DNA of 64,000 nt from Clostridiales bacterium (GCA_003525075.1 DQFO01000014.1:64032-128031); one strand, 5' to 3'; shown: positions 4,038 to 55,184, numbered from the stretch's first letter. Translations and numbers: made by a program. Notes: generated by a model not told the origin, from the sequence alone.

Positions 4038-5542
4038 TTTGGTATTTTTACATATTGCTCTCTTAATCTTTTATTTTCTTCTGTTAAATTAAAAATTTGT
4101 TCTTTCAAATTATCTGCTTCTGCTTTTTGTGCATTACTTCTAATATTCAAGTTTTCTATTTCTTGTTCTTGTGCCTTATTTCTTATATTTTGATTTATTA
4201 ATTCTTGTTTTGTCGCATCTATATCTATAATATTATTTTGCTTATATGATTTCCATGTTTCATCATCTCTTACCATTTCTTGCATTTTATCATCTAGTTT
4301 TTTAAATAGTTCTAAATATTTTGTTAAATTGTATTTTTCTAATAAATCTTCAATTTTTATAAATCTTCTTAATGATATTGTATATAAAATAGATCTATAT
4401 AAAATGTATTCAACTGGTAAATTAGGCTCGTCCCATTCTTGATCAAAGAAATAGAAATCATTATCTATATAAAAACAATTTTTAAATGTCATATCCCATA
4501 ATCCTTTAGGAGTAAAATGCAAATCATTTATTATAGTTTTATCTTGTATTTCTAGATTATATTTTCCAAATGCTGTTTTTTCATAATTTTCTTCATGATA
4601 TATATCAATACTAATTTTTTCTATAAATTTATCTAATATTTCATAAAATTCATCATTTCTCTGTTCTTCAAGTAGCTCTGTTAATCTATTATTTAATAAA
4701 TTTTTCTGTTCTATATATTTACTTCTTATTATTTGATTTTCTATATAATCAACAGTTTTTATACCATTTTCATTTAAATATCTTATATTACTTTTTATAT
4801 TTTCATAATGTTTATGTGCTTTTTCATTTACTTCTTGTTTTTCCACATATTCATCTGCAATTTTTGTAATTAATCTATATTTTTCTTTTCTTATATTATT
4901 AAAAGATATATATTTATATGTTTTATCACATTCACCTTTTGTTATTTCAATTAAAAATGAATTTGCAAAAAATGTAAACATATTTTTATCTGTTTTTAAT
5001 ATTTCTCTAAATACATCAATTTCATTAAATGTAATATCATTATTTTCTATATAATATGGATGATATTTATCTATACTATTATATTCTGGCAATTGTTCAT
5101 CTGTAAAAATTACATTAGGCTTTTTATAATCTGGTAATGGATAATAAAATCTCATATTATATCCTAATTTTCTTATTTCATTTTCTATACTTGATTTTGT
5201 ATATGTTTCTCTTTTATTTTGTTCATTATTATATCCTGTTAAACTAGCAAATTTCTTTTTATATATTTTATCTGGCGTTCCATTAAATGCTTCTAGCCCA
5301 AATTTATTATCAATTGTTATTAGTATTTTTCCTTTTTCTTCTAAAATTTTTTCTACCTTTTTTATAAGTTCTTTTAATTTGATATTTTGATTTTCAAAGA
5401 TTCCTACAAGTATAATTACATCAAATTTTTCATTACATAAATCAATTTCTTCTATATTTTTTATTTCTTTTATTTTTTGGTTTTCTTTAAAAGGATACCA
5501 ATTTAATATATTAGGACTTTGAACTTCACCCACTATTTCCAC
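4010..5542 (-). CDS. Hypothetical protein with a C-terminal coiled coil; possible WbdD-like chain terminator or length regulator
   Basis: 510-aa ORF. Long heptad-like, charged C-terminal tail (NIRNKAQEQEIENLNIRSNAQKAEADNLKEQIFNLTEENKRLREQ). Lies next to the Wzt-type ABC ATPase. Confidence 0.45.
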   Translation of the reverse strand: MEIVGEVQSPNILNWYPFKENQKIKEIKNIEEIDLCNEKFDVIILVGIFENQNIKLKELIKKVEKILEEKGKILITIDNKFGLEAFNGTPDKIYKKKFASLTGYNNEQNKRETYTKSSIENEIRKLGYNMRFYYPLPDYKKPNVIFTDEQLPEYNSIDKYHPYYIENNDITFNEIDVFREILKTDKNMFTFFANSFLIEITKGECDKTYKYISFNNIRKEKYRLITKIADEYVEKQEVNEKAHKHYENIKSNIRYLNENGIKTVDYIENQIIRSKYIEQKNLLNNRLTELLEEQRNDEFYEILDKFIEKISIDIYHEENYEKTAFGKYNLEIQDKTIINDLHFTPKGLWDMTFKNCFYIDNDFYFFDQEWDEPNLPVEYILYRSILYTISLRRFIKIEDLLEKYNLTKYLELFKKLDDKMQEMVRDDETWKSYKQNNIIDIDATKQELINQNIRNKAQEQEIENLNIRSNAQKAEADNLKEQIFNLTEENKRLREQYVKIPKWRFLWRKK

Positions 5543-9660: not shown

Positions 9661-9708
9661 AAAAAAAAGAATTACATAGAAAATAATTCTCTATGTAATT
9701 CTTTTATT
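9661..9708. terminator. Bidirectional intrinsic terminator
   Basis: Perfect 12-bp stem GAATTACATAGA / TCTATGTAATTC (9669-9680 and 9690-9701) with a 9-nt loop, flanked by an A8 run and TTTTATT. Confidence 0.65.
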
Positions 9709-10111
9709 AATTCATACTATTATCAACTGAAAAAGACCCATTTGATAATTCTATATATCCAGCTCCAGAACCAATTCCTTGTGATTCCATATTTATATTT
9801 TTTAATACTTCATTCATTGTAATTATTTTATCTGTTGTTTTGGCAGTTTCATATGCTGGATTCTTATATGATAACTTTTCCTTTATTTTTTAATGAATAT
9901 AGATAGTCTGTAGTCCATCTTCTGTTTCTTGCAAATAATTACTAGAATTATAGTCATCTAATAAAAAATTCAAATACTCTTTTGCTTTTCCTTCTTCATT
10001 TGCTTCTTTTGATCTTGCTACAATTCCATTCTTTCAAGTCAATGCATTTATTGTAGTTCCAGCAAAAACCAACATAATAACTATTGTTACTGCAAGAGTT
10101 ATTAGTGTCAT
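9707..10111 (-). pseudogene. Decayed gene for a small membrane-anchored (pilin-like N-terminus) protein, interrupted by in-frame TGA and TAA codons
   Basis: A single minus-strand frame reads MTLITLAVTIVIMLVFAGTTINALT*KNGIVARSKEANEEGKAKEYLNFLLDDYNSSNYLQETEDGLQTIYIH*KIKEKLSYKNPAYETAKTTDKIITMNEVLKNINMESQGIGSGAGYIELSNGSFSVDNSMN*. The reading stays coherent across two stop codons. Confidence 0.4.
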
Positions 10112-10157
10112 CCCATCTTTTGTTATTATCCCATTTTCTCCTATTCTAATACCACTT

Positions 10158-11138
10158 TTAGTATCTGTATTTTAAATATGAAATTATTGGAAAGTGAAAC
10201 AATGCAATTTCTCTTATCATTTTCTTTCCTTGATTTTTTCCTGACAAAATTTTGAAATAGTCTCCTATATTTTTAATATTTATTTTCTTTGTTTTATATA
10301 TTTCATTATAATAATTTATTGCTTTTTGGCAAAATTCTAAATCTATTTTTTTATTTGCATATTGTTCACACATCTTTATTCCACCATCATATGCCCTTTT
10401 TATAGCATCTTCTCTGTATTTTAAGAATGCATCATAACTATTACCATTCTTCTCTTTCCATCTATTCAAATTTTGATTTAAACTTCGTCCTCCAAAAACA
10501 TTTGAATTATGTAATCTATAATCAAATAATTCTTCTTTTATATAGTCTATTCCCTTTCCTTCATTTGCAATAAAAGCTGCTAACCAATCATGTGCAATTA
10601 CTTTAGATTTAAATGGTATCATCTTTTCTTTAACTGATTTAGTTATTATTTGAGAACATCCAATCCCAACACATCTTGATATTGCCAATTTGTCATTCCC
10701 TTTTACTAATGGTACATTTTTATATTTGAAATAGTTGTCTCTTAGCACAATTCCATCTTCATCTATTTGCCTACAATTGCAATAAACCATATCAACATCT
10801 TTGTCTTTTAATAATTTTAGGCTTTTTTCTACTTTATCTTTATGCCAAACATCGTCATGATCTGAAAACATTATATAATTTGCTGTAGATTGTTGTAACA
10901 AAAATTCAAAATTTTTATTATATCCTAAATTTTGAGGTTGCAAAAATAATCTTATTCGATTATCATTTTTTTCATACTCTTCTAGTAATTCCTTTATTTC
11001 ATTTTTATTTGAATTGTCATCACTTATATATATTTTTATATTTTTATATGTTTGTCTTAATATACTTTCAATTTGTTTTTTTAGATATTTTTCATTTGTA
11101 TTATATGTTGTAACTAATATATCTACTACTTCGTCCAT
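10158..11138 (-). CDS. GT2 glycosyltransferase, rhamnosyltransferase-like
   Basis: ILVTTYNTNEKYLKKQIESILRQTYKNIKIYISDDNS. Paralog of 7770-8756. Confidence 0.7.
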   Translation of the reverse strand: MDEVVDILVTTYNTNEKYLKKQIESILRQTYKNIKIYISDDNSNKNEIKELLEEYEKNDNRIRLFLQPQNLGYNKNFEFLLQQSTANYIMFSDHDDVWHKDKVEKSLKLLKDKDVDMVYCNCRQIDEDGIVLRDNYFKYKNVPLVKGNDKLAISRCVGIGCSQIITKSVKEKMIPFKSKVIAHDWLAAFIANEGKGIDYIKEELFDYRLHNSNVFGGRSLNQNLNRWKEKNGNSYDAFLKYREDAIKRAYDGGIKMCEQYANKKIDLEFCQKAINYYNEIYKTKKINIKNIGDYFKILSGKNQGKKMIREIALFHFPIISYLKYRY

Positions 11139-11213
11139 TTTCCGCTCCCTTTTTTTATTTAATTGAATTTTAGCATATCTATTTTATAAAGTCAAATTCA
11201 TTTTACATAAACA

Positions 11214-11242
11214 TTGACATTTTTTTCTAATTATACTATAAT
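11214..11242 (+). promoter_or_regulatory. Consensus sigma-70/sigma-A promoter (TTGACA, 17-nt spacer, TATAAT) driving the GC-rich ORF
   Basis: TTGACA at 11214-11219 and TATAAT at 11237-11242 with exactly 17 nt between. AGGAGG lies 7 nt before the ATG at 11299. Confidence 0.6.
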
Positions 11243-11298
11243 AATAATATAGGCTGATTTGCCTATTATAATTTTGTGGCCTACAAGGAGGGCTAATT

Positions 11299-11607
11299 AT
11301 GAGCATTTTTGAGAATGACGGAAACTACTACGCCAACTATTCTGTCCCTGCAATTTCTTTTTGCAACAGAAAAGCATCATCTGCCGAGTTCCGCAAATAC
11401 CTGGCCGAACATCCTTCTGTACAGGAAGATGTTCCGTCCTCTATTATGGAAGAACTCCAGAAGATGCCCAGCGCCAAACCCGCTGGTGCTGCCTACTATG
11501 CAACCCTGAACACTCAGCTGTTCACCAAGTTCTGCAAAGATGTGGCAACGGCGATGGTAGAGAAGTCTCGCGATCCTCAGTGTGTTATGGTCTTCTCTGG
11601 AAACTAA
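11299..11607 (+). CDS. Hypothetical 102-aa protein encoded in a GC-rich (about 50% GC) cassette of foreign composition
   Basis: Strong ribosome-binding site. Codon usage (ctg, gcc, ccc, cgc) is unlike the 27% GC host. No motif recognised. The product ends ...VMVFSGN and may be a fragment. Confidence 0.55.
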   Translation: MSIFENDGNYYANYSVPAISFCNRKASSAEFRKYLAEHPSVQEDVPSSIMEELQKMPSAKPAGAAYYATLNTQLFTKFCKDVATAMVEKSRDPQCVMVFSGN

Positions 11608-11635
11608 AATAGATTTTATATTTTAGTTTTTCACA

Positions 11636-11675
11636 AAAGCCCGCAGATGAAAAAAATCATCTGCGGGCTTTTTAT
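11636..11675. terminator. Strong GC-rich intrinsic terminator (15-bp perfect stem), bidirectional; also closes convergent recO
   Basis: AAAGCCCGCAGATGA-aaaaaa-TCATCTGCGGGCTTT followed by TTT. Confidence 0.8.
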
Positions 11676-11676
11676 A

Positions 11677-12381
11677 TTATCTTTCTAATTTATCATCAAA
11701 ATATAATTTTGAAACAAGTTTTAATTCATTTAAAGATTCATCTTTTAAAGAAAATGAAAATAATTTTTTTGCTGGAGCCATAACAATATATCTAATCGCT
11801 GATACTGTACTTTCAGATATTGAAATTGCCCCTTTATCTAATCTTCCACAATTTTCACATTTAAAGCCATCATTTTTTAGACTAAAATACTTCAAATTAT
11901 TTTTTTCTTTACAATTTACACATTCCATAATTCTTGGTGTAAAACCAAGAAAGCATAATAATTTTAACTTAAATGTACTTATAACTAAATCTATATTTTT
12001 ATCTGTCTCTGATAAAGTATATAACGTATTTAATAACATTTGTAATATTTTATAACAATTTTCATTTTCATCAGTTACATCTCTTACAATTTTTGTAATC
12101 TCTATTGCATAATTAAGTTTATCTAAATCTGTTCTCAAATTATAAAAAACTTCAATAGTATCACAAGAATTTATATTATATGTATTTGACCCTTTATACA
12201 TCATATACTCTCCAAAACAAAATAACTGTGTTCCAGCTAGCAAGGCGCTTCTCGGACGCCTCGCCCCTTTAGCAACACACGATATCTTGCCTAATCCTGG
12301 AGTTAACATTGTAAGCATTTTGTCATAATCTCCTAAATTGCTTTCAGAGATTATTATCCCACTTGTTTTTATTGTCCCCAT
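11677..12381 (-). CDS. recO: DNA repair protein RecO
   Basis: 234 aa with an N-terminal OB fold. Conserved VAKGARR motif. C-terminal zinc motif (CVNC...CENC). Confidence 0.85.
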   Translation of the reverse strand: MGTIKTSGIIISESNLGDYDKMLTMLTPGLGKISCVAKGARRPRSALLAGTQLFCFGEYMMYKGSNTYNINSCDTIEVFYNLRTDLDKLNYAIEITKIVRDVTDENENCYKILQMLLNTLYTLSETDKNIDLVISTFKLKLLCFLGFTPRIMECVNCKEKNNLKYFSLKNDGFKCENCGRLDKGAISISESTVSAIRYIVMAPAKKLFSFSLKDESLNELKLVSKLYFDDKLER

Positions 12382-12511
12382 ATTTTTCCGCCTTTTGTTC
12401 CATATTATTATTTTGCAATTGTTCTTCTATTCCTTGAAATTGTTTTAATTCTAAAAATGTATTAACATCTCCTGTATTTTTAAATGTGTCCCATGCAATT
12501 TTTTTAATCAT
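12344..12511 (-). CDS. Small YqzL-like protein (55 aa), between era and recO; not present in the supplied ORF track
   Basis: MIKKIAWDTFKNTGDVNTFLELKQFQGIEEQLQNNN... resembles the conserved YqzL small-protein family found at this position in Bacillus. Overlaps the recO start by 38 nt. Confidence 0.4.
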   Translation of the reverse strand: MIKKIAWDTFKNTGDVNTFLELKQFQGIEEQLQNNNMEQKAEKYGDNKNKWDNNL

Positions 12512-12576: not shown

Positions 12577-13476
12577 TTATAACTTGAATTTTTTTACAAC
12601 TGATGTATCATCAAGCCAATTTTCTTTAACTTTTACCCATGTTCTTAAATTAACTTTTGTTCCAAAGTTTCTTTCCATGTCAATTCTTGCTGATTGTCCA
12701 ATTCTTTTTAACATCGTTCCATCTTTTCCAATTATTATCCCTTTATGTGATTCTCTTAAACAATATATTGTTGCTTCAATATCATAAAATTCTTCTTTAT
12801 TCTTAGTTTTCTTTAATTTCATTTTTGTTACTTCTACATATATCCCATGTGGAACTTCGTCTTGTAAATACATTAATGCTTTTTCTCTTATTGTCTCTTC
12901 AGCAAGTTGCCTCATTGTCTGATCTGTATATTCTTCAACATCATAATATGCTGGCCCAGGCTTTAATACTTTTTCTATTTCATCTAATATAATATCTCTA
13001 TATTTTGATTTTATTGATGATACAGGAATTACAGCTTCAAAGTTATATTCTTTTTGATATAAATCAATTAATTTTAATAAACTCTCTTTTTTTACTAAAT
13101 CTATTTTATTAATAATTAATATTGCCTTTTTCTTAGATTCTTTAATCTTCTCTAAGATTCTCATATCTCCTCTTCCAATTTCATCACTTGTAGCTTCTAT
13201 AACAAATAATATTAAATCAATATCTTTTATTACTCCAAATGATGTTTCAATCATTGTTTCATTTAATTTTGTCTTTGGTTTATGAATTCCAGGAGTATCT
13301 ATAAATATGATTTGAGAATTTTCTCTATTTACAATACCTCTTATTGCAGTTCTTGTTGTTTGAACTTTATTTGCTGTTGCAGCTACTTTTTCTCCAACTA
13401 AGAGATTTACTAAAGTTGACTTTCCTACATTCGTTCTTCCTAGCATTGCTACAAATCCTGATTTAAATTCTGACAT
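12577..13476 (-). CDS. era: GTPase Era
   Basis: G1 motif GRTNVGKST, G3 motif DTPG, NKID, and a C-terminal KH domain. Confidence 0.9.
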   Translation of the reverse strand: MSEFKSGFVAMLGRTNVGKSTLVNLLVGEKVAATANKVQTTRTAIRGIVNRENSQIIFIDTPGIHKPKTKLNETMIETSFGVIKDIDLILFVIEATSDEIGRGDMRILEKIKESKKKAILIINKIDLVKKESLLKLIDLYQKEYNFEAVIPVSSIKSKYRDIILDEIEKVLKPGPAYYDVEEYTDQTMRQLAEETIREKALMYLQDEVPHGIYVEVTKMKLKKTKNKEEFYDIEATIYCLRESHKGIIIGKDGTMLKRIGQSARIDMERNFGTKVNLRTWVKVKENWLDDTSVVKKFKL

Positions 13477-15773
13477 TATTCTTCCTCCATTTGTTTAACT
13501 GAATACTCTAAAACATTAATATTTTTTACAATTAATTTTGCTCCAATTTCCTCATCGTCTAATTTTCCTATTCTTATAACTTTTTTTGATTCTAATTTTA
13601 TGTCCATATCACTTAACTTAGCTATAATTCTAGTATCATTATCCATTCCAATTGGTAATGTTTTATTTTGGTTATCATAATATATACAATTAGAAAATGC
13701 TATAACATTTGAACCTTTTTCTAATTTTATTTTATATAAATTAATCTTACTATTTTCTGATTTTTCTGTTGCTTTTTTTACTTCATCTTCAGCATTTAAA
13801 TTAAATACATTTATTTTATTTGCATCAATACTTTCTCCATCTTCAGTCCACATATATGCAATAATGTCTTGACTTGTAGTTACTTTAGTAATTGCTTCAT
13901 TTATTCTCCAAATAACTTGACTAAGATTTACTTTATAATCAACAACTTTATATTGTTTTGCTAAACCTAATATTAGAAATTTATTTTTTGGATTTTCTCT
14001 ATGGGATTTATTATCTAATTTTTTTATTTTTCTCGTATCTTCTTCCAATCCTCCAAAAATATCAACTTCATCATCTAATCTTCCTTTTTGTTCCTTATAT
14101 TCAGCTTTCAATATTTTTAAATACTTATCCAATTCTTTAGGTTCTAATGAATTTGTCTTTAATTTATTTATTGGCTCTATTTGTTCTGTTGCTACCAAAA
14201 ATATAGAATCTAACTCTTCTTTATTTAATTTATTTCTTTGAACTTTATCCATCATAATGCCAAATTCTTCAAAATCTTCTTCAAACTCAAAAGTTTTGGT
14301 ATGTGGTTTTACATTTACAACTTCTTCTTCACCTTCTGCTAAAGACTTTACTTCATCTTTATTACTGTATTTCCAAAATTCAAATATACTCTTTTTATGA
14401 CTATCTATTTCAGCTATAAAAGCTGATGCATTTTCTATCTTTTTTGTTAAATTAACTTTCTTTAATTTTATTGCATTTATATCCATTTTTGTATTGTTAA
14501 ATTCTTTTTCTTTTTCTGCAGTCTCTTTTCCTTTTTCTAACAAATCGTCTAATGTATATTGTTTTTTTATTTTTTCTTCTTCATCTACTTCAGCTACTTC
14601 TTGTATTGTGTTATTTTCTTTTACTTCTGCTTCTTTTTTTGCTTCTTTCTTTTTCTTCTTTCCACTATATTTAAAGAAATATTTAACTTTTCCAAAAAAT
14701 GTTTTTTTACATTCTAAAAATGTTGAAATTTGTTTTTCTTTTTCTATATAATCTGCTTCAAGTTTTTCTGTTTCTTTTTTTAAAATTTCTAATTTATTTT
14801 TATATTCTATATTATTTTTTATATTTTCTTCTTCTATATCAATTAATTTTTTATATTGACTATTAATAAAGTCTGGTAGATCATCATATTTTAAAATTTC
14901 ATCTTGATAATAAAATTCTAGTTCTCCCTGTTTGTCTATTTGAACTTCAAATTTATAATACTCCGGAATTTCTGTTTGGAGTATATATAATGCTTTTACA
15001 AGTTTAAAAAATTTACTTGCATCTATTTTTCCGGTAAGTTTTACTTTGTATTCTGATTTTATTGTTCCTAAAACTTGAGTTTGTCCAATTATTTGTAATG
15101 ACACTTTCCCTGTTTTATCATAAACTTCATATATTGATGGCCAATCATTTGTAAATGTCCATAAATAATTTTCCAAGCTTTCAATTTCTGTTTTATTTAA
15201 TATTTCCTTTGAATAATCTATATTACTTATAGGAACAAATATCTTTCCAGCTTTCTTTTTTTCTAATTGTTTTTTTAATACATAAAAAAATGTTGAATAG
15301 TCTTTATCTTCAGTTGTTACTATCATAAAATATTTTTCATCATTTTCTGAATAATATATTTGCCATAAATAATTTTTTGGATATCTTATTTTGAAAGGAA
15401 TTTTTTTATTTAAATTTTGTTGTTGTTCTTCAATTTCTTTTATCTCATCTATATCAACTTCACTTAACATTCTTAAAAATTCTTCATGTAGTTGCTTTTC
15501 TTCTTCTGTTTTGGGATCTAAATATGAAACTAATGGTTTGGCCATAGAATATTTTGTTTTAGTATCTTCTAATCTATTACATGGTGATACCAATATTTCT
15601 AATTCTTTTGGTGATACAAATCTATATTGTTTATACTTATTTTCTTCAATTCCTGTATTAGGTCTAAAATTTATATTTTCAACATATTTTAATGTTTCAG
15701 GTATTTGTTCTAAATCTAAGCATATATATTCTAATTTTTCTGCTATTTCTTGTGCTATTTTTTTCTTTTCCAA
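13476..15773 (-). CDS. Large (765 aa) Lys/Glu-rich hypothetical protein
   Basis: Long ORF in the same orientation as era and abutting it. Low-complexity charged stretches (KKKKKEAKKEAEVKENN). No recognisable catalytic motif. Confidence 0.55.
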   Translation of the reverse strand: MEKKKIAQEIAEKLEYICLDLEQIPETLKYVENINFRPNTGIEENKYKQYRFVSPKELEILVSPCNRLEDTKTKYSMAKPLVSYLDPKTEEEKQLHEEFLRMLSEVDIDEIKEIEEQQQNLNKKIPFKIRYPKNYLWQIYYSENDEKYFMIVTTEDKDYSTFFYVLKKQLEKKKAGKIFVPISNIDYSKEILNKTEIESLENYLWTFTNDWPSIYEVYDKTGKVSLQIIGQTQVLGTIKSEYKVKLTGKIDASKFFKLVKALYILQTEIPEYYKFEVQIDKQGELEFYYQDEILKYDDLPDFINSQYKKLIDIEEENIKNNIEYKNKLEILKKETEKLEADYIEKEKQISTFLECKKTFFGKVKYFFKYSGKKKKKEAKKEAEVKENNTIQEVAEVDEEEKIKKQYTLDDLLEKGKETAEKEKEFNNTKMDINAIKLKKVNLTKKIENASAFIAEIDSHKKSIFEFWKYSNKDEVKSLAEGEEEVVNVKPHTKTFEFEEDFEEFGIMMDKVQRNKLNKEELDSIFLVATEQIEPINKLKTNSLEPKELDKYLKILKAEYKEQKGRLDDEVDIFGGLEEDTRKIKKLDNKSHRENPKNKFLILGLAKQYKVVDYKVNLSQVIWRINEAITKVTTSQDIIAYMWTEDGESIDANKINVFNLNAEDEVKKATEKSENSKINLYKIKLEKGSNVIAFSNCIYYDNQNKTLPIGMDNDTRIIAKLSDMDIKLESKKVIRIGKLDDEEIGAKLIVKNINVLEYSVKQMEEE

Positions 15774-53981: not shown

Positions 53982-55184
53982 TTATTCAATTATATCAGCA
54001 ACAACACCTGAACCAACTGTTCTACCACCTTCACGAATAGCGAATCTTAATCCCTTTTCGATAGCGATAGGTGTAATTAATTCAATTGTCATTGATACGT
54101 TATCACCTGGCATAACCATTTCTGTTCCAGCAGGTAATTCAATAACACCTGTTACGTCTGTTGTTCTGAAATAGAATTGTGGTCTGTATCCGTTGAAGAA
54201 TGGTGTATGACGTCCACCTTCTTCTTTTGTTAGAACGTATACTTCTGATGTGAATTTTGTATGTGGATGTATTGTTCCTGGTTTACATAGTACTTGACCT
54301 CTTTCGATGTCTTTTCTATCAATACCTCTTAATAATGTTCCGATATTATCTCCAGCTTCAGCTTGGTCTAATAATTTTCTGAACATTTCAACACCTGTTA
54401 CAACTGTTTTCTTTCTTTCTTGTGATAATCCTATGATTTCAACTTCGTCAGAAACTTTAACTTCTCCTCTTTCTACTCTACCTGTAGCAACTGTACCACG
54501 TCCTGTGATTGTGAATACATCTTCAACTGGCATTAAGAATGGTTGGTCAATTGGTCTTTGTGGTGTTGGGATATAGCTATCAACTGCATCCATTAATTCT
54601 TTCATTGGAGCATAAACTGGATCGTTAGGATCTGTTGATGTGCTCTCTAATACTTTTAATGATGATCCTTTTACAACTGGAATTTCGTCTCCTGGGAAAC
54701 CATATTCTGTTAATAAGTCTCTAACTTCCATTTCAACTAATTCTAATAATTCTGGATCGTCAACCATATCACATTTATTTAAGTAAACAACGATGTATTT
54801 TACACCTACTTGTCTAGCTAATAAGATGTGTTCTCTTGTTTGTGGCATTGGTCCATCAGCTGCAGAAACAACTAATATTGCACCATCCATTTGTGCAGCA
54901 CCTGTGATCATGTTCTTTACATAGTCAGCATGTCCTGGGCAGTCAACGTGAGCATAGTGTCTTGTATCTGTTTCATATTCAACGTGAGCTGTATTAATTG
55001 TGATTCCTCTTGCTTTTTCTTCTGGTGCTCCATCGATTTGATCATAAGCTTCGAATTTAGCTTGACCTTTTAATGATAAATATTTTGTAATAGCAGCTGT
55101 TGTTGTTGTTTTTCCATGGTCTACGTGTCCGATAGTACCGATGTTAACGTGTGGCTTTGTTCTTTCAAATTTTGCTTTTGCCAT
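53982..55184 (-). CDS. tuf: Elongation factor Tu
   Basis: [18 protein letters not shown]. 400 aa. Confidence 0.95.

What the first reader, a model, noticed from the sequence alone, without database searches (positions are those of the whole stretch)
11214..11675. GC-rich (about 50% GC) promoter-RBS-ORF-terminator cassette inserted in the recO / GT2 intergenic gap
Base composition jumps from about 27% to about 50% GC exactly over a self-contained plus-strand unit. The unit has a perfect TTGACA-17-TATAAT promoter, AGGAGG 7 nt from the ATG, a 102-aa ORF with E. coli-like codon usage and no recognisable domain, and a 15-bp perfect GC-rich terminator hairpin. All flanking genes are on the minus strand and AT-rich. 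This is the signature of a very recent horizontal acquisition or an engineered insertion, and the product is uncharacterised.
Basis: seen in the sequence. Interest (0 to 1): 0.8.

Follow-up and report, generated by a model that had tools for sequence, protein, structure and literature searches.

The report
Old GC-rich orphan gene beside recO
The GC-rich cassette is real, but it is not a recent or engineered insertion: it is a naturally occurring, protein-coding small gene of unknown function that a clade of very AT-rich human-gut Clostridia has carried at this same spot for a long time, still GC-rich.

Summary
There is a perfect TTGACA-17-TATAAT promoter (11214-11242), AGGAGG 7 nt before the ATG, a 102-aa ORF (11299-11607; GC 0.48, GC3 0.53) in a 26% GC window, and a 16-bp terminator hairpin (11635-11672).

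The identical protein is an NCBI 'hypothetical protein' seen on 338 public contigs. Relatives carry a homologue at the same GT2/recO site. Synonymous divergence matches the neighbouring genes.

The ORF is coding: dN/dS is 0.17-0.41 and polymorphism by codon position is 8/10/30. It belongs to a fast-evolving family of 70-132 aa with no Pfam, PDB, phage or plasmid relatives. The family shares a K-P-A-G-x-x-Y-Y-x-x-L core and is found only at this site. More distant relatives have an empty site, so it is an old insertion of about 0.5 kb.

Every lineage keeps a near-consensus promoter, a stem-loop at the predicted transcript start, a Shine-Dalgarno sequence, a GC-rich coding body and a terminator.

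The codons used are ones EF-Tu avoids, so the bias is not translational optimisation. A second cassette of the same design (27679-28455, dTMP-kinase-like) shows this is a recurring class. Function, and the reason for the persistent GC-richness, remain unknown.

The parts
11139..11213 (-). Left part of the inserted segment. It is the intergenic DNA carrying a promoter-like site for the GT2 gene (TTGACT-17-TAAAAT with TG, 11195-11167 on the minus strand), back-to-back with the small gene's promoter.
   Evidence: Promoter scan. This DNA is absent from the empty-site relatives L014, L019 and L025.
11214..11242 (+). Perfect sigma-70/sigmaA-type promoter TTGACA-17 nt-TATAAT.
   Evidence: one of only 2 perfect matches in 64 kb, against 0.07 expected. 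An 11-12/12 match with a 17-nt spacer is kept in all 12 diverse family loci.
11249..11266 (+). Stem-loop ATAGGC-TGATTT-GCCTAT (dG -7.4 kcal/mol). It starts 6 nt after the -10 box, which is at the predicted 5' end of the transcript.
   Evidence: A 6-8 bp hairpin of differing sequence starts 6-9 nt after the -10 box in all 12 lineages (Fisher combined p = 0.009 over 7 independent subfamilies). The start site itself was not mapped.
11286..11291 (+). Shine-Dalgarno sequence AGGAGG, 7 nt before the ATG.
   Evidence: Read directly from the sequence. It is invariant in window, L001 and L005.
11299..11607 (+). Protein-coding gene of 102 aa plus stop. GC 0.476 and GC3 0.53; 35 of 97 degenerate codons are host-rare (<10% relative usage).
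   Evidence: Coding status rests on dN/dS 0.17-0.41, segregating sites by codon position 8/10/30 (binomial p = 3e-5), an in-frame 3-nt indel in L005, and protein-level homology to L007 (53% identity, E = 5e-31) where DNA similarity is mostly lost.
11476..11508 (+). Codons 60-70, K-P-A-G-A-A-Y-Y-A-T-L. This is the only motif shared by all subfamilies (YY and L invariant). It sits at the start of the longest predicted helix.
   Evidence: Alignments A2 and A3. The AlphaFold2 model has helix 64-89 with pLDDT 60-77 and an overall pLDDT of 55.
11601..11629 (+). AT-rich 11-bp hairpin spanning the stop codon (AAACTAAAATA / TATTTTAGTTT).
   Evidence: I3. It is identical in window, L001 and L005. Its role is unknown.
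11635..11672 (.). Bidirectional intrinsic terminator: 16-bp perfect stem with T-runs on both strands. It ends both the small gene (+) and the convergent recO (-; stop codon at 11677-11679).
   Evidence: L005 carries a compensatory G>A / C>T pair. The loop is inverted (A7 to T7) in 5 of 23 population contigs with the stem intact.
11677..12381 (-). recO, the right-hand anchor of the site (context only).
   Evidence: Pfam RecO_N and RecO_C.
10158..11138 (-). Family-2 glycosyltransferase, the left-hand anchor of the site (context only).
   Evidence: Pfam Glycos_transf_2, E = 7.8e-30.

Best explanation
Shown: this is a chromosomal gene unit restricted to one clade of uncultured, roughly 26% GC human and animal gut Clostridia. 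It lies between a GT2 gene and recO. The unit is about 0.5 kb and autonomous: near-consensus sigmaA promoter, a stem-loop at the predicted transcript start, a strong Shine-Dalgarno sequence, a GC-rich ORF, and a bidirectional terminator shared with recO. The ORF is translated into a fast-evolving protein of 70-132 aa with no signal peptide or transmembrane segment. It has no detectable relatives outside this site. Its one universally conserved element is K-P-A-G-x-x-Y-Y-x-x-L. The unit was inserted once or a few times in an ancestor, then inherited vertically in the window's clade, and has stayed GC-rich ever since. Its anomalous composition is therefore an old, persistent property and not a mark of recent arrival. 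Inferred (about 0.5): the perfect promoter, 5'-terminal hairpin, strong SD, GC-rich body and stable 3' hairpin together make an abundant, long-lived monocistronic mRNA, as in the aprE, hbs and gsiB type of stabilised Firmicute mRNAs. Speculative (about 0.3): the mostly helical or disordered protein acts by docking its conserved motif onto a conserved host partner. Because the GC excess is limited to the translated region and uses codons that EF-Tu avoids, I think a force acting on the coding region itself is more likely than leftover donor composition. That force could be mRNA durability or deliberate use of non-optimal codons. This point is not settled.
For: Same site and synteny appear in all contexts examined and in 21 further human-gut metagenome contigs at 96-100% identity. 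The exact protein is on 338 contigs, named 'hypothetical protein'. Coding evidence: dN/dS 0.17-0.41 with dS like the neighbours; polymorphism by codon position 8/10/30, p = 3e-5; an in-frame indel. Family limits: only 5 true relatives among 1.84 billion representatives, and 39 by profile among 5.8 billion, none with a Pfam domain. On the RecO+Era tree all members of the window's clade are carriers except the rearranged L009, and the subfamilies follow the host tree; deeper branches lack the gene. Persistence of GC: GC3 is 0.30-0.54 in all lineages while recO and era have GC3 0.09-0.17 and pS 0.32-0.57. The architecture is conserved in 12 lineages. The GC rise is restricted to the CDS body, with UTRs at 0.22-0.30. 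tuf uses no C/G in four-fold boxes, no CTG and no CGC, whereas the small ORF does. W>S synonymous changes per site are 3x those of the flanks (p = 0.014). Outgroup polarisation gives W>S 6 against S>W 2. A second, unrelated gene has the same design and persistent GC3 excess across relatives. The stabilising role of 5' stem-loops and strong SD sequences is documented in the references listed by review PMC3997798.
Against: There is no expression, start-site or protein evidence, so promoter strength and mRNA stability are inferred from sequence only. The mRNA-folding z-score (-2.2 against synonymous-codon shuffles) is no better than for control genes (recO -4.0, kinase -3.5), so there is no specific evidence of selected RNA structure. 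Individual 5' hairpins are not significant on their own (p 0.02-0.39). Majority-rule polarisation gives S>W 25 against W>S 7, a net drift towards AT. A two-state neutral model with lower-bound times leaves 47-70% of an initial GC3 excess. Slow amelioration from a very GC-rich donor (ancestral GC3 of about 0.85-0.97) is therefore not strictly excluded. The structure model is of low confidence (pLDDT 55) and no partner is known. In the sister clade the gene is patchy (L043, L016/L017/L087, L081), which needs several losses or transfers.
Confidence: 0.72

Rival explanations
1. Ancient horizontal transfer from a very high-GC donor, still ameliorating neutrally. On this view the GC-richness is leftover donor composition decaying in every lineage, and no selection on composition is involved.
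For: Atypical composition is the classical sign of foreign origin. GC3 varies between lineages (0.30-0.54), and lower values go with shorter or more diverged copies such as L010. Majority-rule polarisation gives S>W 25 against W>S 7. The two-state model with lower-bound times leaves 47-70% of the excess. Relatives with an empty site exist.
Against: It requires an ancestral GC3 of about 0.85-1.0. The deep comparisons sit on a saturation plateau, so the true times are longer than the model assumes. The transcribed non-coding parts of the same unit are host-like (0.22-0.30) and do not match the GC3 excess. W>S changes are 3x more frequent per site than in the flanks. Outgroup polarisation favours gains. 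No donor homologue appears among 5.8 billion proteins. A second unrelated gene shows the same persistent excess.
Confidence: 0.17
2. One reading: a very recent horizontal acquisition or an engineered or synthetic insertion specific to this genome.
For: A textbook-perfect promoter, SD and terminator, and a sharp compositional contrast.
Against: The gene is present at the same site in many independent natural metagenomes and MAGs. Its dS equals that of the neighbours. Diverged homologues occur at the same site in sister species. No match was found to E. coli, plasmid, phage or viral DNA.
Confidence: 0.01
3. The GC-rich segment is primarily a structured non-coding or dual-function regulatory RNA, and the ORF is incidental or secondary.
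For: In very AT-rich genomes, GC-rich islands with their own promoter and terminator are usually structured RNAs. The whole transcript folds with z = -4.2 against dinucleotide shuffles. ORFs are open in other frames as well.
Against: No Rfam family matches even at E <= 10 apart from terminator-like hits. Substitutions are codon-periodic and dN/dS < 1. Protein similarity survives where DNA similarity is lost. The SD and ATG are conserved. The z-score against synonymous shuffles is no better than that of ordinary genes. A purely non-coding role is therefore very unlikely; an additional RNA-level role is not excluded.
Confidence: 0.06
4. The GT2/recO junction is a hot spot that repeatedly captures cassettes from a hidden GC-rich mobile pool, so each subfamily is an independent recent import.
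For: Subfamilies are less than 30% identical. Distribution in the sister clade is patchy, and L081 has two tandem copies. The layout is moron-like, with its own promoter and terminator and deviant GC (for the concept).
Against: No family member was found in any other context, phage, plasmid or viral contig. There are no integrase, repeats or target duplications; only a 9-nt AT-rich repeat likely to be chance. Subfamilies follow the host tree within the window's clade. Promoter and UTR layout is shared by all.
Confidence: 0.04

Closest known systems
Phage 'morons' (HK97 gp15 type): independent promoter-ORF-terminator units of deviant GC content inserted between two adjacent genes (Cumby, Davidson and Maxwell 2012, PMC3594210)
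   Same: Own sigma-70-type promoter, own intrinsic terminator, a single small ORF, GC content different from the neighbours, present as extra DNA relative to related genomes, product usually of unknown function.
   Different: It is not in a prophage. It sits between housekeeping genes (GT2 and recO/era). It has no relatives in phage or viral collections, and within its clade it is inherited vertically over long times with no sign of exchange among phages.
Stabilised Firmicute mRNAs (B. subtilis aprE leader, hbs, gsiB): 5'-terminal stem-loop and/or a very strong SD that block RNase J1 (review PMC3997798; hbs: PMC5737220)
   Same: A stem-loop starting at the predicted +1, a strong SD close behind it, a small monocistronic transcript and a stable 3' hairpin.
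   Different: The start site and half-life are not measured here. The GC-rich, rare-codon coding body has no counterpart in those examples.
Lineage-restricted orphan ('hypothetical') small proteins of gut MAGs
   Same: No domain, narrow taxonomic range, fast evolution (dN about 10x that of the neighbours), annotated only as hypothetical protein.
   Different: Orphans normally have host-like or AT-shifted composition. This one keeps GC3 about 0.4 above the host across the clade, and has a perfect promoter.
Rare-codon-dependent expression control (bldA/TTA in Streptomyces; starvation-robust codons in E. coli). Recalled from general knowledge and not tested here.
   Same: A gene built largely from codons that the host's highly expressed genes avoid (35 of 97; all Leu as CTG/CTC, Arg as CGC).
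   Different: No dedicated tRNA or regulatory link is known for this clade. Here the whole coding region is shifted and not just one codon. This is a functional analogy only.

Membership tests
Recently acquired genomic islet (horizontal transfer) | Atypical base composition and codon usage relative to the host | tested here: met
   GC 0.476 against 0.264; GC3 0.53 against 0.125; CAI-like index 0.17 against a host mean of 0.72.
Recently acquired genomic islet (horizontal transfer) | Absent from close relatives, with divergence lower than or unrelated to that of the flanking genes | tested here: not met
   Present at the same site in L001-L008, L010-L012 and others. Its dS is of the same order as the flanks. 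The protein is more diverged than the neighbours, not less.
Recently acquired genomic islet (horizontal transfer) | Identifiable donor relatives or mobility signatures (integrase, flanking repeats, tRNA site) | tested here: not met
   No homologue outside this site among 5.8 billion and 1.84 billion proteins. No phage, plasmid or viral hits. No tRNA in the window. Only a 9-nt repeat likely to be chance.
Engineered / synthetic insertion | Sequence identity to vector, reporter or model-organism parts, and absence from natural samples | tested here: not met
   No blastn match in E. coli genomes or PLSDB plasmids. The exact protein is on 338 contigs from many independent gut metagenomes.
Phage moron | Own promoter and own factor-independent terminator around one ORF, with GC different from the neighbours | tested here: met
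Phage moron | Located within a phage or prophage genome and spread among phages | tested here: not met
   Neighbours are GT2, an ABC transporter, recO, yqzL and era. There are no PHROG, phage or IMG/VR matches.
Structured non-coding RNA | Match to a described RNA family, or structure conserved by covariation, without codon periodicity | tested here: not met
   No Rfam match. Substitutions are codon-periodic. The folding z-score is no better than that of control genes.
5'-stabilised mRNA (aprE / hbs type) | Stem-loop within a few nucleotides of the transcript's 5' end, plus a strong SD | tested here: inconclusive
   A hairpin starts 6-9 nt after the -10 box in 12 of 12 lineages with differing sequences (combined p = 0.009), and the SD is present. 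The start site is predicted and not mapped.
5'-stabilised mRNA (aprE / hbs type) | Measured long mRNA half-life that depends on the 5' element | not testable with these tools
   The organism is uncultured and no transcript data are available here.
Ribbon-helix-helix (CopG/Arc) DNA-binding proteins | Profile similarity across strand, helix A and helix B | tested here: not met
   hhalign of family profile A2 against CopG (sequence recalled from memory) gave probability 1.8%. No RHH Pfam family matched any member at E <= 10.
Any curated protein family (Pfam, NCBIfam, PHROGs, PADLOC, PDB) | Score above the family threshold | tested here: not met
   The best hit is DUF5647 at 15.3 bits against a cut-off of 27. 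Nothing was found in NCBIfam, PHROGs, PADLOC, PDB sequences or PDB folds.

The most novel reading that the evidence does not exclude
These very AT-rich gut Clostridia maintain, by selection on the translated region, a small class of monocistronic genes. Here the class has two members: the small protein, and the dTMP-kinase-like gene at 27679-28455. Each has a perfect promoter, a structured 5' end and a terminator, and each coding region is written almost entirely in GC-rich codons that highly expressed host genes avoid. On this reading, composition is itself the regulatory device. It would make the mRNA resistant to AU-directed RNases, or tie its translation to rarely used tRNAs, for example to keep it translated when the common tRNAs are uncharged. 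That would be the reverse of the bldA/TTA logic of high-GC Streptomyces.
Probability: 0.2. Interest if true: 0.75.

Novelty: new variant of a known kind. Interest (0 to 1): 0.42.

Why it matters
For genome scanning, this is a clean counter-example to the rule that a compositional island with perfect expression signals means recent transfer or engineering. The island here is old, syntenic and natural.

Biologically, it defines an unannotated small-protein family. The family is abundant in human-gut metagenomes (338 contigs for one allele) and, judging from its signals, is probably strongly expressed.

It also raises a testable question. How can a coding region stay about 40 percentage points above the host's synonymous GC level through long divergence, in two unrelated genes of the same design? 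If selection on composition explains this, it would be a new layer of gene regulation in reduced, AT-rich genomes. If slow amelioration explains it, the finding is ordinary.

Tried and rejected
1. Structured RNA. An Rfam E-value search of 10800-12100 and a gathering-threshold search of the whole window gave only terminator-like noise. ARAGORN found no tRNA or tmRNA.

2. Selected mRNA structure. The whole transcript gave z = -4.2 against dinucleotide shuffles. Against synonymous-codon shuffles the CDS gave -2.2, while control genes gave -1.6 to -4.0. The signal is therefore not specific. An earlier script timed out.

3. Translational optimisation. Rejected, because tuf avoids exactly the codons this ORF uses.

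4. Phage, plasmid, viral or E. coli origin. No matches.

5. Defence-system or phage protein families. None.

6. Ribbon-helix-helix lead (L011 'YYDQLAREMGL' against CopG 'LEKMAREMGL'). hhalign probability was 1.8%.

7. Structure route. The AlphaFold2 model has pLDDT 55, and Foldseek against PDB gave 0 hits. The second structure job was not used because no deeper permitted alignment was available.

8. P0009 (566 aa, E = 5e-4) is a low-complexity repeat protein and not a relative.

9. Flanking direct repeats as an insertion scar. Only a 9-nt AT-rich repeat was found, it is not conserved in L007, and it is probably chance.

10. A rough neutral-decay estimate suggested amelioration was impossible. 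A proper two-state estimate is less decisive, so that claim was softened.

11. Locus scans with the broad alignment A3 failed for lack of conserved stretches. The narrower alignment A4 worked.

12. Two literature searches on GC-rich orphan genes gave nothing specific.

Full report
OBSERVATION.
- A 12/12 promoter, TTGACA-17-TATAAT, lies at 11214-11242.
- AGGAGG lies at 11286-11291, 7 nt before the ATG at 11299.
- A 102-aa ORF ends at 11607.
- A perfect 16-bp hairpin with a T-run lies at 11635-11672.
- GC in 200-nt windows climbs from 0.17-0.25 to 0.47-0.52 and drops back to 0.235.
- The ORF has GC 0.476 and GC3 0.53. The window has GC 0.264, and its 51 long ORFs have mean GC3 0.125.
- The perfect promoter pattern occurs only twice in 64 kb, against 0.07 expected.
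- Neighbours are a GT2 glycosyltransferase, recO, a yqzL-like ORF, era and an ABC-2 permease, all on the minus strand.
- One refinement: the GC rise is confined to the coding body and the terminator stem. The promoter and both UTRs are host-like.

NOT RECENT, NOT ENGINEERED.
- A word-seeded search of 5.8 billion proteins found the protein at 88-96% identity.
- The contigs that carry those proteins have the same order: GT2, small ORF (+), recO, yqzL, era.
- A metagenome scan found 21 further human-gut contigs at 96-100% identity.
- The exact sequence is deposited as 'hypothetical protein' in several NCBI MAGs and was seen on 338 contigs.
- Against L001 and L005, the small gene's dS (0.115 and 0.349) is of the same order as that of GT2, recO, era and the permease (0.06-0.27). 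Its dN is about ten times higher than theirs.
- There is no similarity to phage, plasmid, IMG/VR or E. coli DNA.

IT IS A PROTEIN-CODING GENE.
- dN/dS is 0.17-0.41.
- In 24 population sequences, segregating sites fall 8/10/30 on codon positions 1/2/3 (binomial p = 3e-5).
- The only indel among close relatives is one codon.
- The species representative closest by RecO (95% identity) still gives a tblastn match of 53% identity (E = 5e-31) at the same site, while nucleotide similarity is reduced to a 107-nt stretch.
- Rfam gives nothing.
- The transcript folds better than dinucleotide shuffles (z = -4.2).
- With synonymous-codon shuffles the CDS scores -2.2, while recO, era and the other GC-rich gene score -1.6 to -4.0. 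There is therefore no specific sign of a selected RNA fold.

THE FAMILY AND ITS HISTORY.
I anchored on RecO and fetched 80 species-representative loci from uncultured gut Clostridia (Clostridium sp. 26_21, CAG:389 and similar). From memory, these correspond to the small-genome CAG-508/TANB77-type lineages; I did not test that.
- A convergent, GC-rich small ORF lies directly downstream of recO in L007, L008, L010, L011, L012, L016, L017, L022, L029, L043 and L081.
- These ORFs form subfamilies of about 70, 82-88, 100 and 127-132 aa. Some are below 30% identity to each other.
- All share K-P-A-G-x-x-Y-Y-x-x-L, with YY and L invariant.
- Exhaustive phmmer over 1.84 billion representatives finds only 5 true relatives.
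- A profile search finds 39 proteins, none annotated and none with a Pfam domain. Every context inspected is the same site.
- On a RecO+Era tree the whole clade containing the window carries the gene, except L009, whose junction is rearranged. The subfamilies follow the host branching.
- In the sister clade the gene is patchy, and deeper branches lack it.
- In non-carriers the GT2 start codon lies about 45 nt from the recO stop, with no terminator between them. Carriers therefore have an extra segment of about 0.5 kb, which also supplies GT2 with its own promoter-like site.
- The unit is thus an old insertion, inherited vertically in the window's clade.

CONSERVED EXPRESSION ARCHITECTURE.
In all 12 diverse lineages the layout is the same:
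- -35 is TTGAC[A/T], the spacer is 17 nt, and -10 is TATAAT or one mismatch from it.
- A 6-8 bp stem-loop begins 6-9 nt after the -10 box, at the predicted 5' end of the RNA. Its sequence differs between subfamilies.
- An SD and the ATG follow 22-36 nt later.
- Single hairpins are not significant on their own, but seven independent subfamilies combine to p = 0.009, and the position is constant.
- The terminator keeps pairing through a compensatory G>A / C>T change in L005 and through a loop inversion in 5 of 23 contigs.
- Stem-loops at the 5' end and strong SDs are established stabilisers against 5'-dependent decay in B. subtilis and E. coli (references collected in PMC3997798; hbs in PMC5737220).
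- I therefore infer an abundant, long-lived monocistronic mRNA. That is an inference from sequence alone.

THE COMPOSITIONAL PUZZLE.
GC3 is 0.30-0.54 in every lineage. Meanwhile recO and era stay at 0.09-0.17 and have diverged to pS 0.32-0.57.

This is not translational optimisation:
- EF-Tu in the same window (GC3 0.18) uses no C or G in four-fold boxes, TTA/CTA for Leu and AGA/CGT for Arg.
- The small ORF uses CTG/CTC for all Leu, CGC for Arg, 15 of 32 four-fold codons ending in C or G, and 10 of 18 NNR codons ending in G.
- Of its 97 degenerate codons, 35 are host-rare.

The excess is limited to the translated region. The UTRs are at 0.22-0.30, the first 30 nt of the CDS at 0.36, and the body at 0.44-0.52.

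Evidence on the direction of synonymous change is mixed:
- Majority-rule polarisation gives S>W 25 against W>S 7. Even so, W>S per site is 3x the flank rate (p = 0.014).
- Outgroup polarisation, with only 8 informative sites, gives W>S 6 against S>W 2.
- A two-state neutral model using the flanks leaves 47-70% of an initial excess. The deep comparisons lie on a plateau, so those times are lower bounds.

Neutral amelioration would thus need an ancestor with GC3 of about 0.85-1.0. It would also leave unexplained why the non-coding parts of the same unit are AT-rich. I regard maintenance by a force acting on the coding region as more likely, and slow amelioration as a live rival (0.17).

A SECOND UNIT OF THE SAME DESIGN.
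The other perfect promoter in the window (27679-27707) precedes the only other GC-rich ORF.
- That ORF (27784-28416) is a dTMP-kinase-like P-loop protein (PF02223), with GC 0.46 and GC3 0.50.
- It has GGAGG upstream and a GC-rich terminator downstream.
- In relatives at 63-69% identity the gene lies at the same place after a PHP-domain gene.
- There it keeps a near-consensus promoter and terminator, and has GC3 0.35-0.46 against 0.14-0.17 for the PHP gene.
- In about 636 kb of relatives' DNA around recO, nearly all GC islands are the small-gene family.
- The third island in the window lies inside tuf.
- The finding is therefore one instance of a recurring class in these genomes.

FUNCTION.
- No curated family, solved structure or fold matches.
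- The AlphaFold2 model is weak (pLDDT 55). It suggests a disordered first 26 residues and helices at 24-37, 47-55 and 64-89, the last starting at the conserved motif.
- A ribbon-helix-helix resemblance was tested and rejected.
- My best guess is a cytoplasmic, highly expressed small protein that acts through the conserved motif on a conserved partner. Nothing here tests that.
- Adjacency to recO and GT2 is explained by descent from one insertion and carries no functional weight.

COMPARISON AND VERDICT.
- In layout the unit is most like a phage moron (PMC3594210). It fails the defining requirement of lying in a phage genome.
- It resembles stabilised Firmicute mRNAs in its 5' end (not proven), and it is an orphan small protein by annotation.
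- It is not a recent islet, not engineered and not a known RNA.
- Novelty lies in the persistent, CDS-limited GC and rare-codon composition coupled to perfect expression signals, seen in two unrelated genes.
- Interest is moderate (0.42). The headline reading is refuted, and the residual puzzle is real but unresolved.

Noticed in passing
window 27679-28455 (+): A second GC-rich cassette of the same design. It has a perfect TTGACA-17-TATAAT promoter (27679-27707), GGAGG, and a 210-aa dTMP-kinase-like ORF at 27784-28416 (PF02223; GC 0.46, GC3 0.50). A GC-rich terminator follows (AAGCCCAAGTA...TACTTGGGCTT, about 28424-28452). The gene is syntenic after a PHP-domain gene and still GC3-elevated in relatives at 63-69% identity (L117, L120-L122).
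   Followed up: partly
window 11651-11656 (terminator loop): Population polymorphism in which the hairpin loop is inverted: GATGAAAAAAATCATC against GATGATTTTTTTCATC. It occurs in 5 of 23 metagenome contigs with the stem unchanged. This is a flip-flop inversion of a palindrome loop. L005 also carries a compensatory G>A / C>T stem pair.
   Followed up: partly
L081 about 4764-5400 (minus strand): Two family genes lie in tandem downstream of recO. The upstream copy ends '...VGKVGNLNYYTALCREMFNWK' and carries the motif. The downstream 71-aa copy stops just before where the motif would be.
   Followed up: no
window 9707-10123 (-): The 586-nt gap between the ABC-2 permease and GT2 holds only the N-terminal (80% identity over 91 aa) and C-terminal (95% identity over 61 aa) remnants of a 581-aa domain-less ORF. 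That ORF is intact in L001. The window therefore has an internal deletion or pseudogene in the polysaccharide cluster.
   Followed up: partly
window 13476-15773 (-): A 765-aa ORF directly upstream of era has no Pfam domain. It is conserved in position (769-775 aa) in all relatives examined. It is Lys/Glu-rich, and its function is unknown.
   Followed up: no
L084 4743-5004 and 5950-6389; L052 about 4700-4900: More distant relatives have GC-rich palindromic repeat elements downstream of recO in place of the small gene (for example GCCCCTTTA..AAGGGGGCTGTC..GACTGGGGGTTCTT copies). They look like REP or MITE-type repeats.
   Followed up: no
window 54828-55049, inside tuf at 53982-55184 (-): The third GC island of the window is the G-domain region of EF-Tu (gene GC 0.37, GC3 0.18). 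It served as the reference for the host's preferred codons: only A/T in four-fold boxes, TTA, AGA, and about half C in NNY boxes.
   Followed up: yes
window 12344-12511 (-): A 55-aa yqzL-like ORF (PF14006, below threshold at 22.7 bits) overlaps the start of recO by 38 nt. It gives the classical Firmicute era-yqzL-recO arrangement.
   Followed up: no
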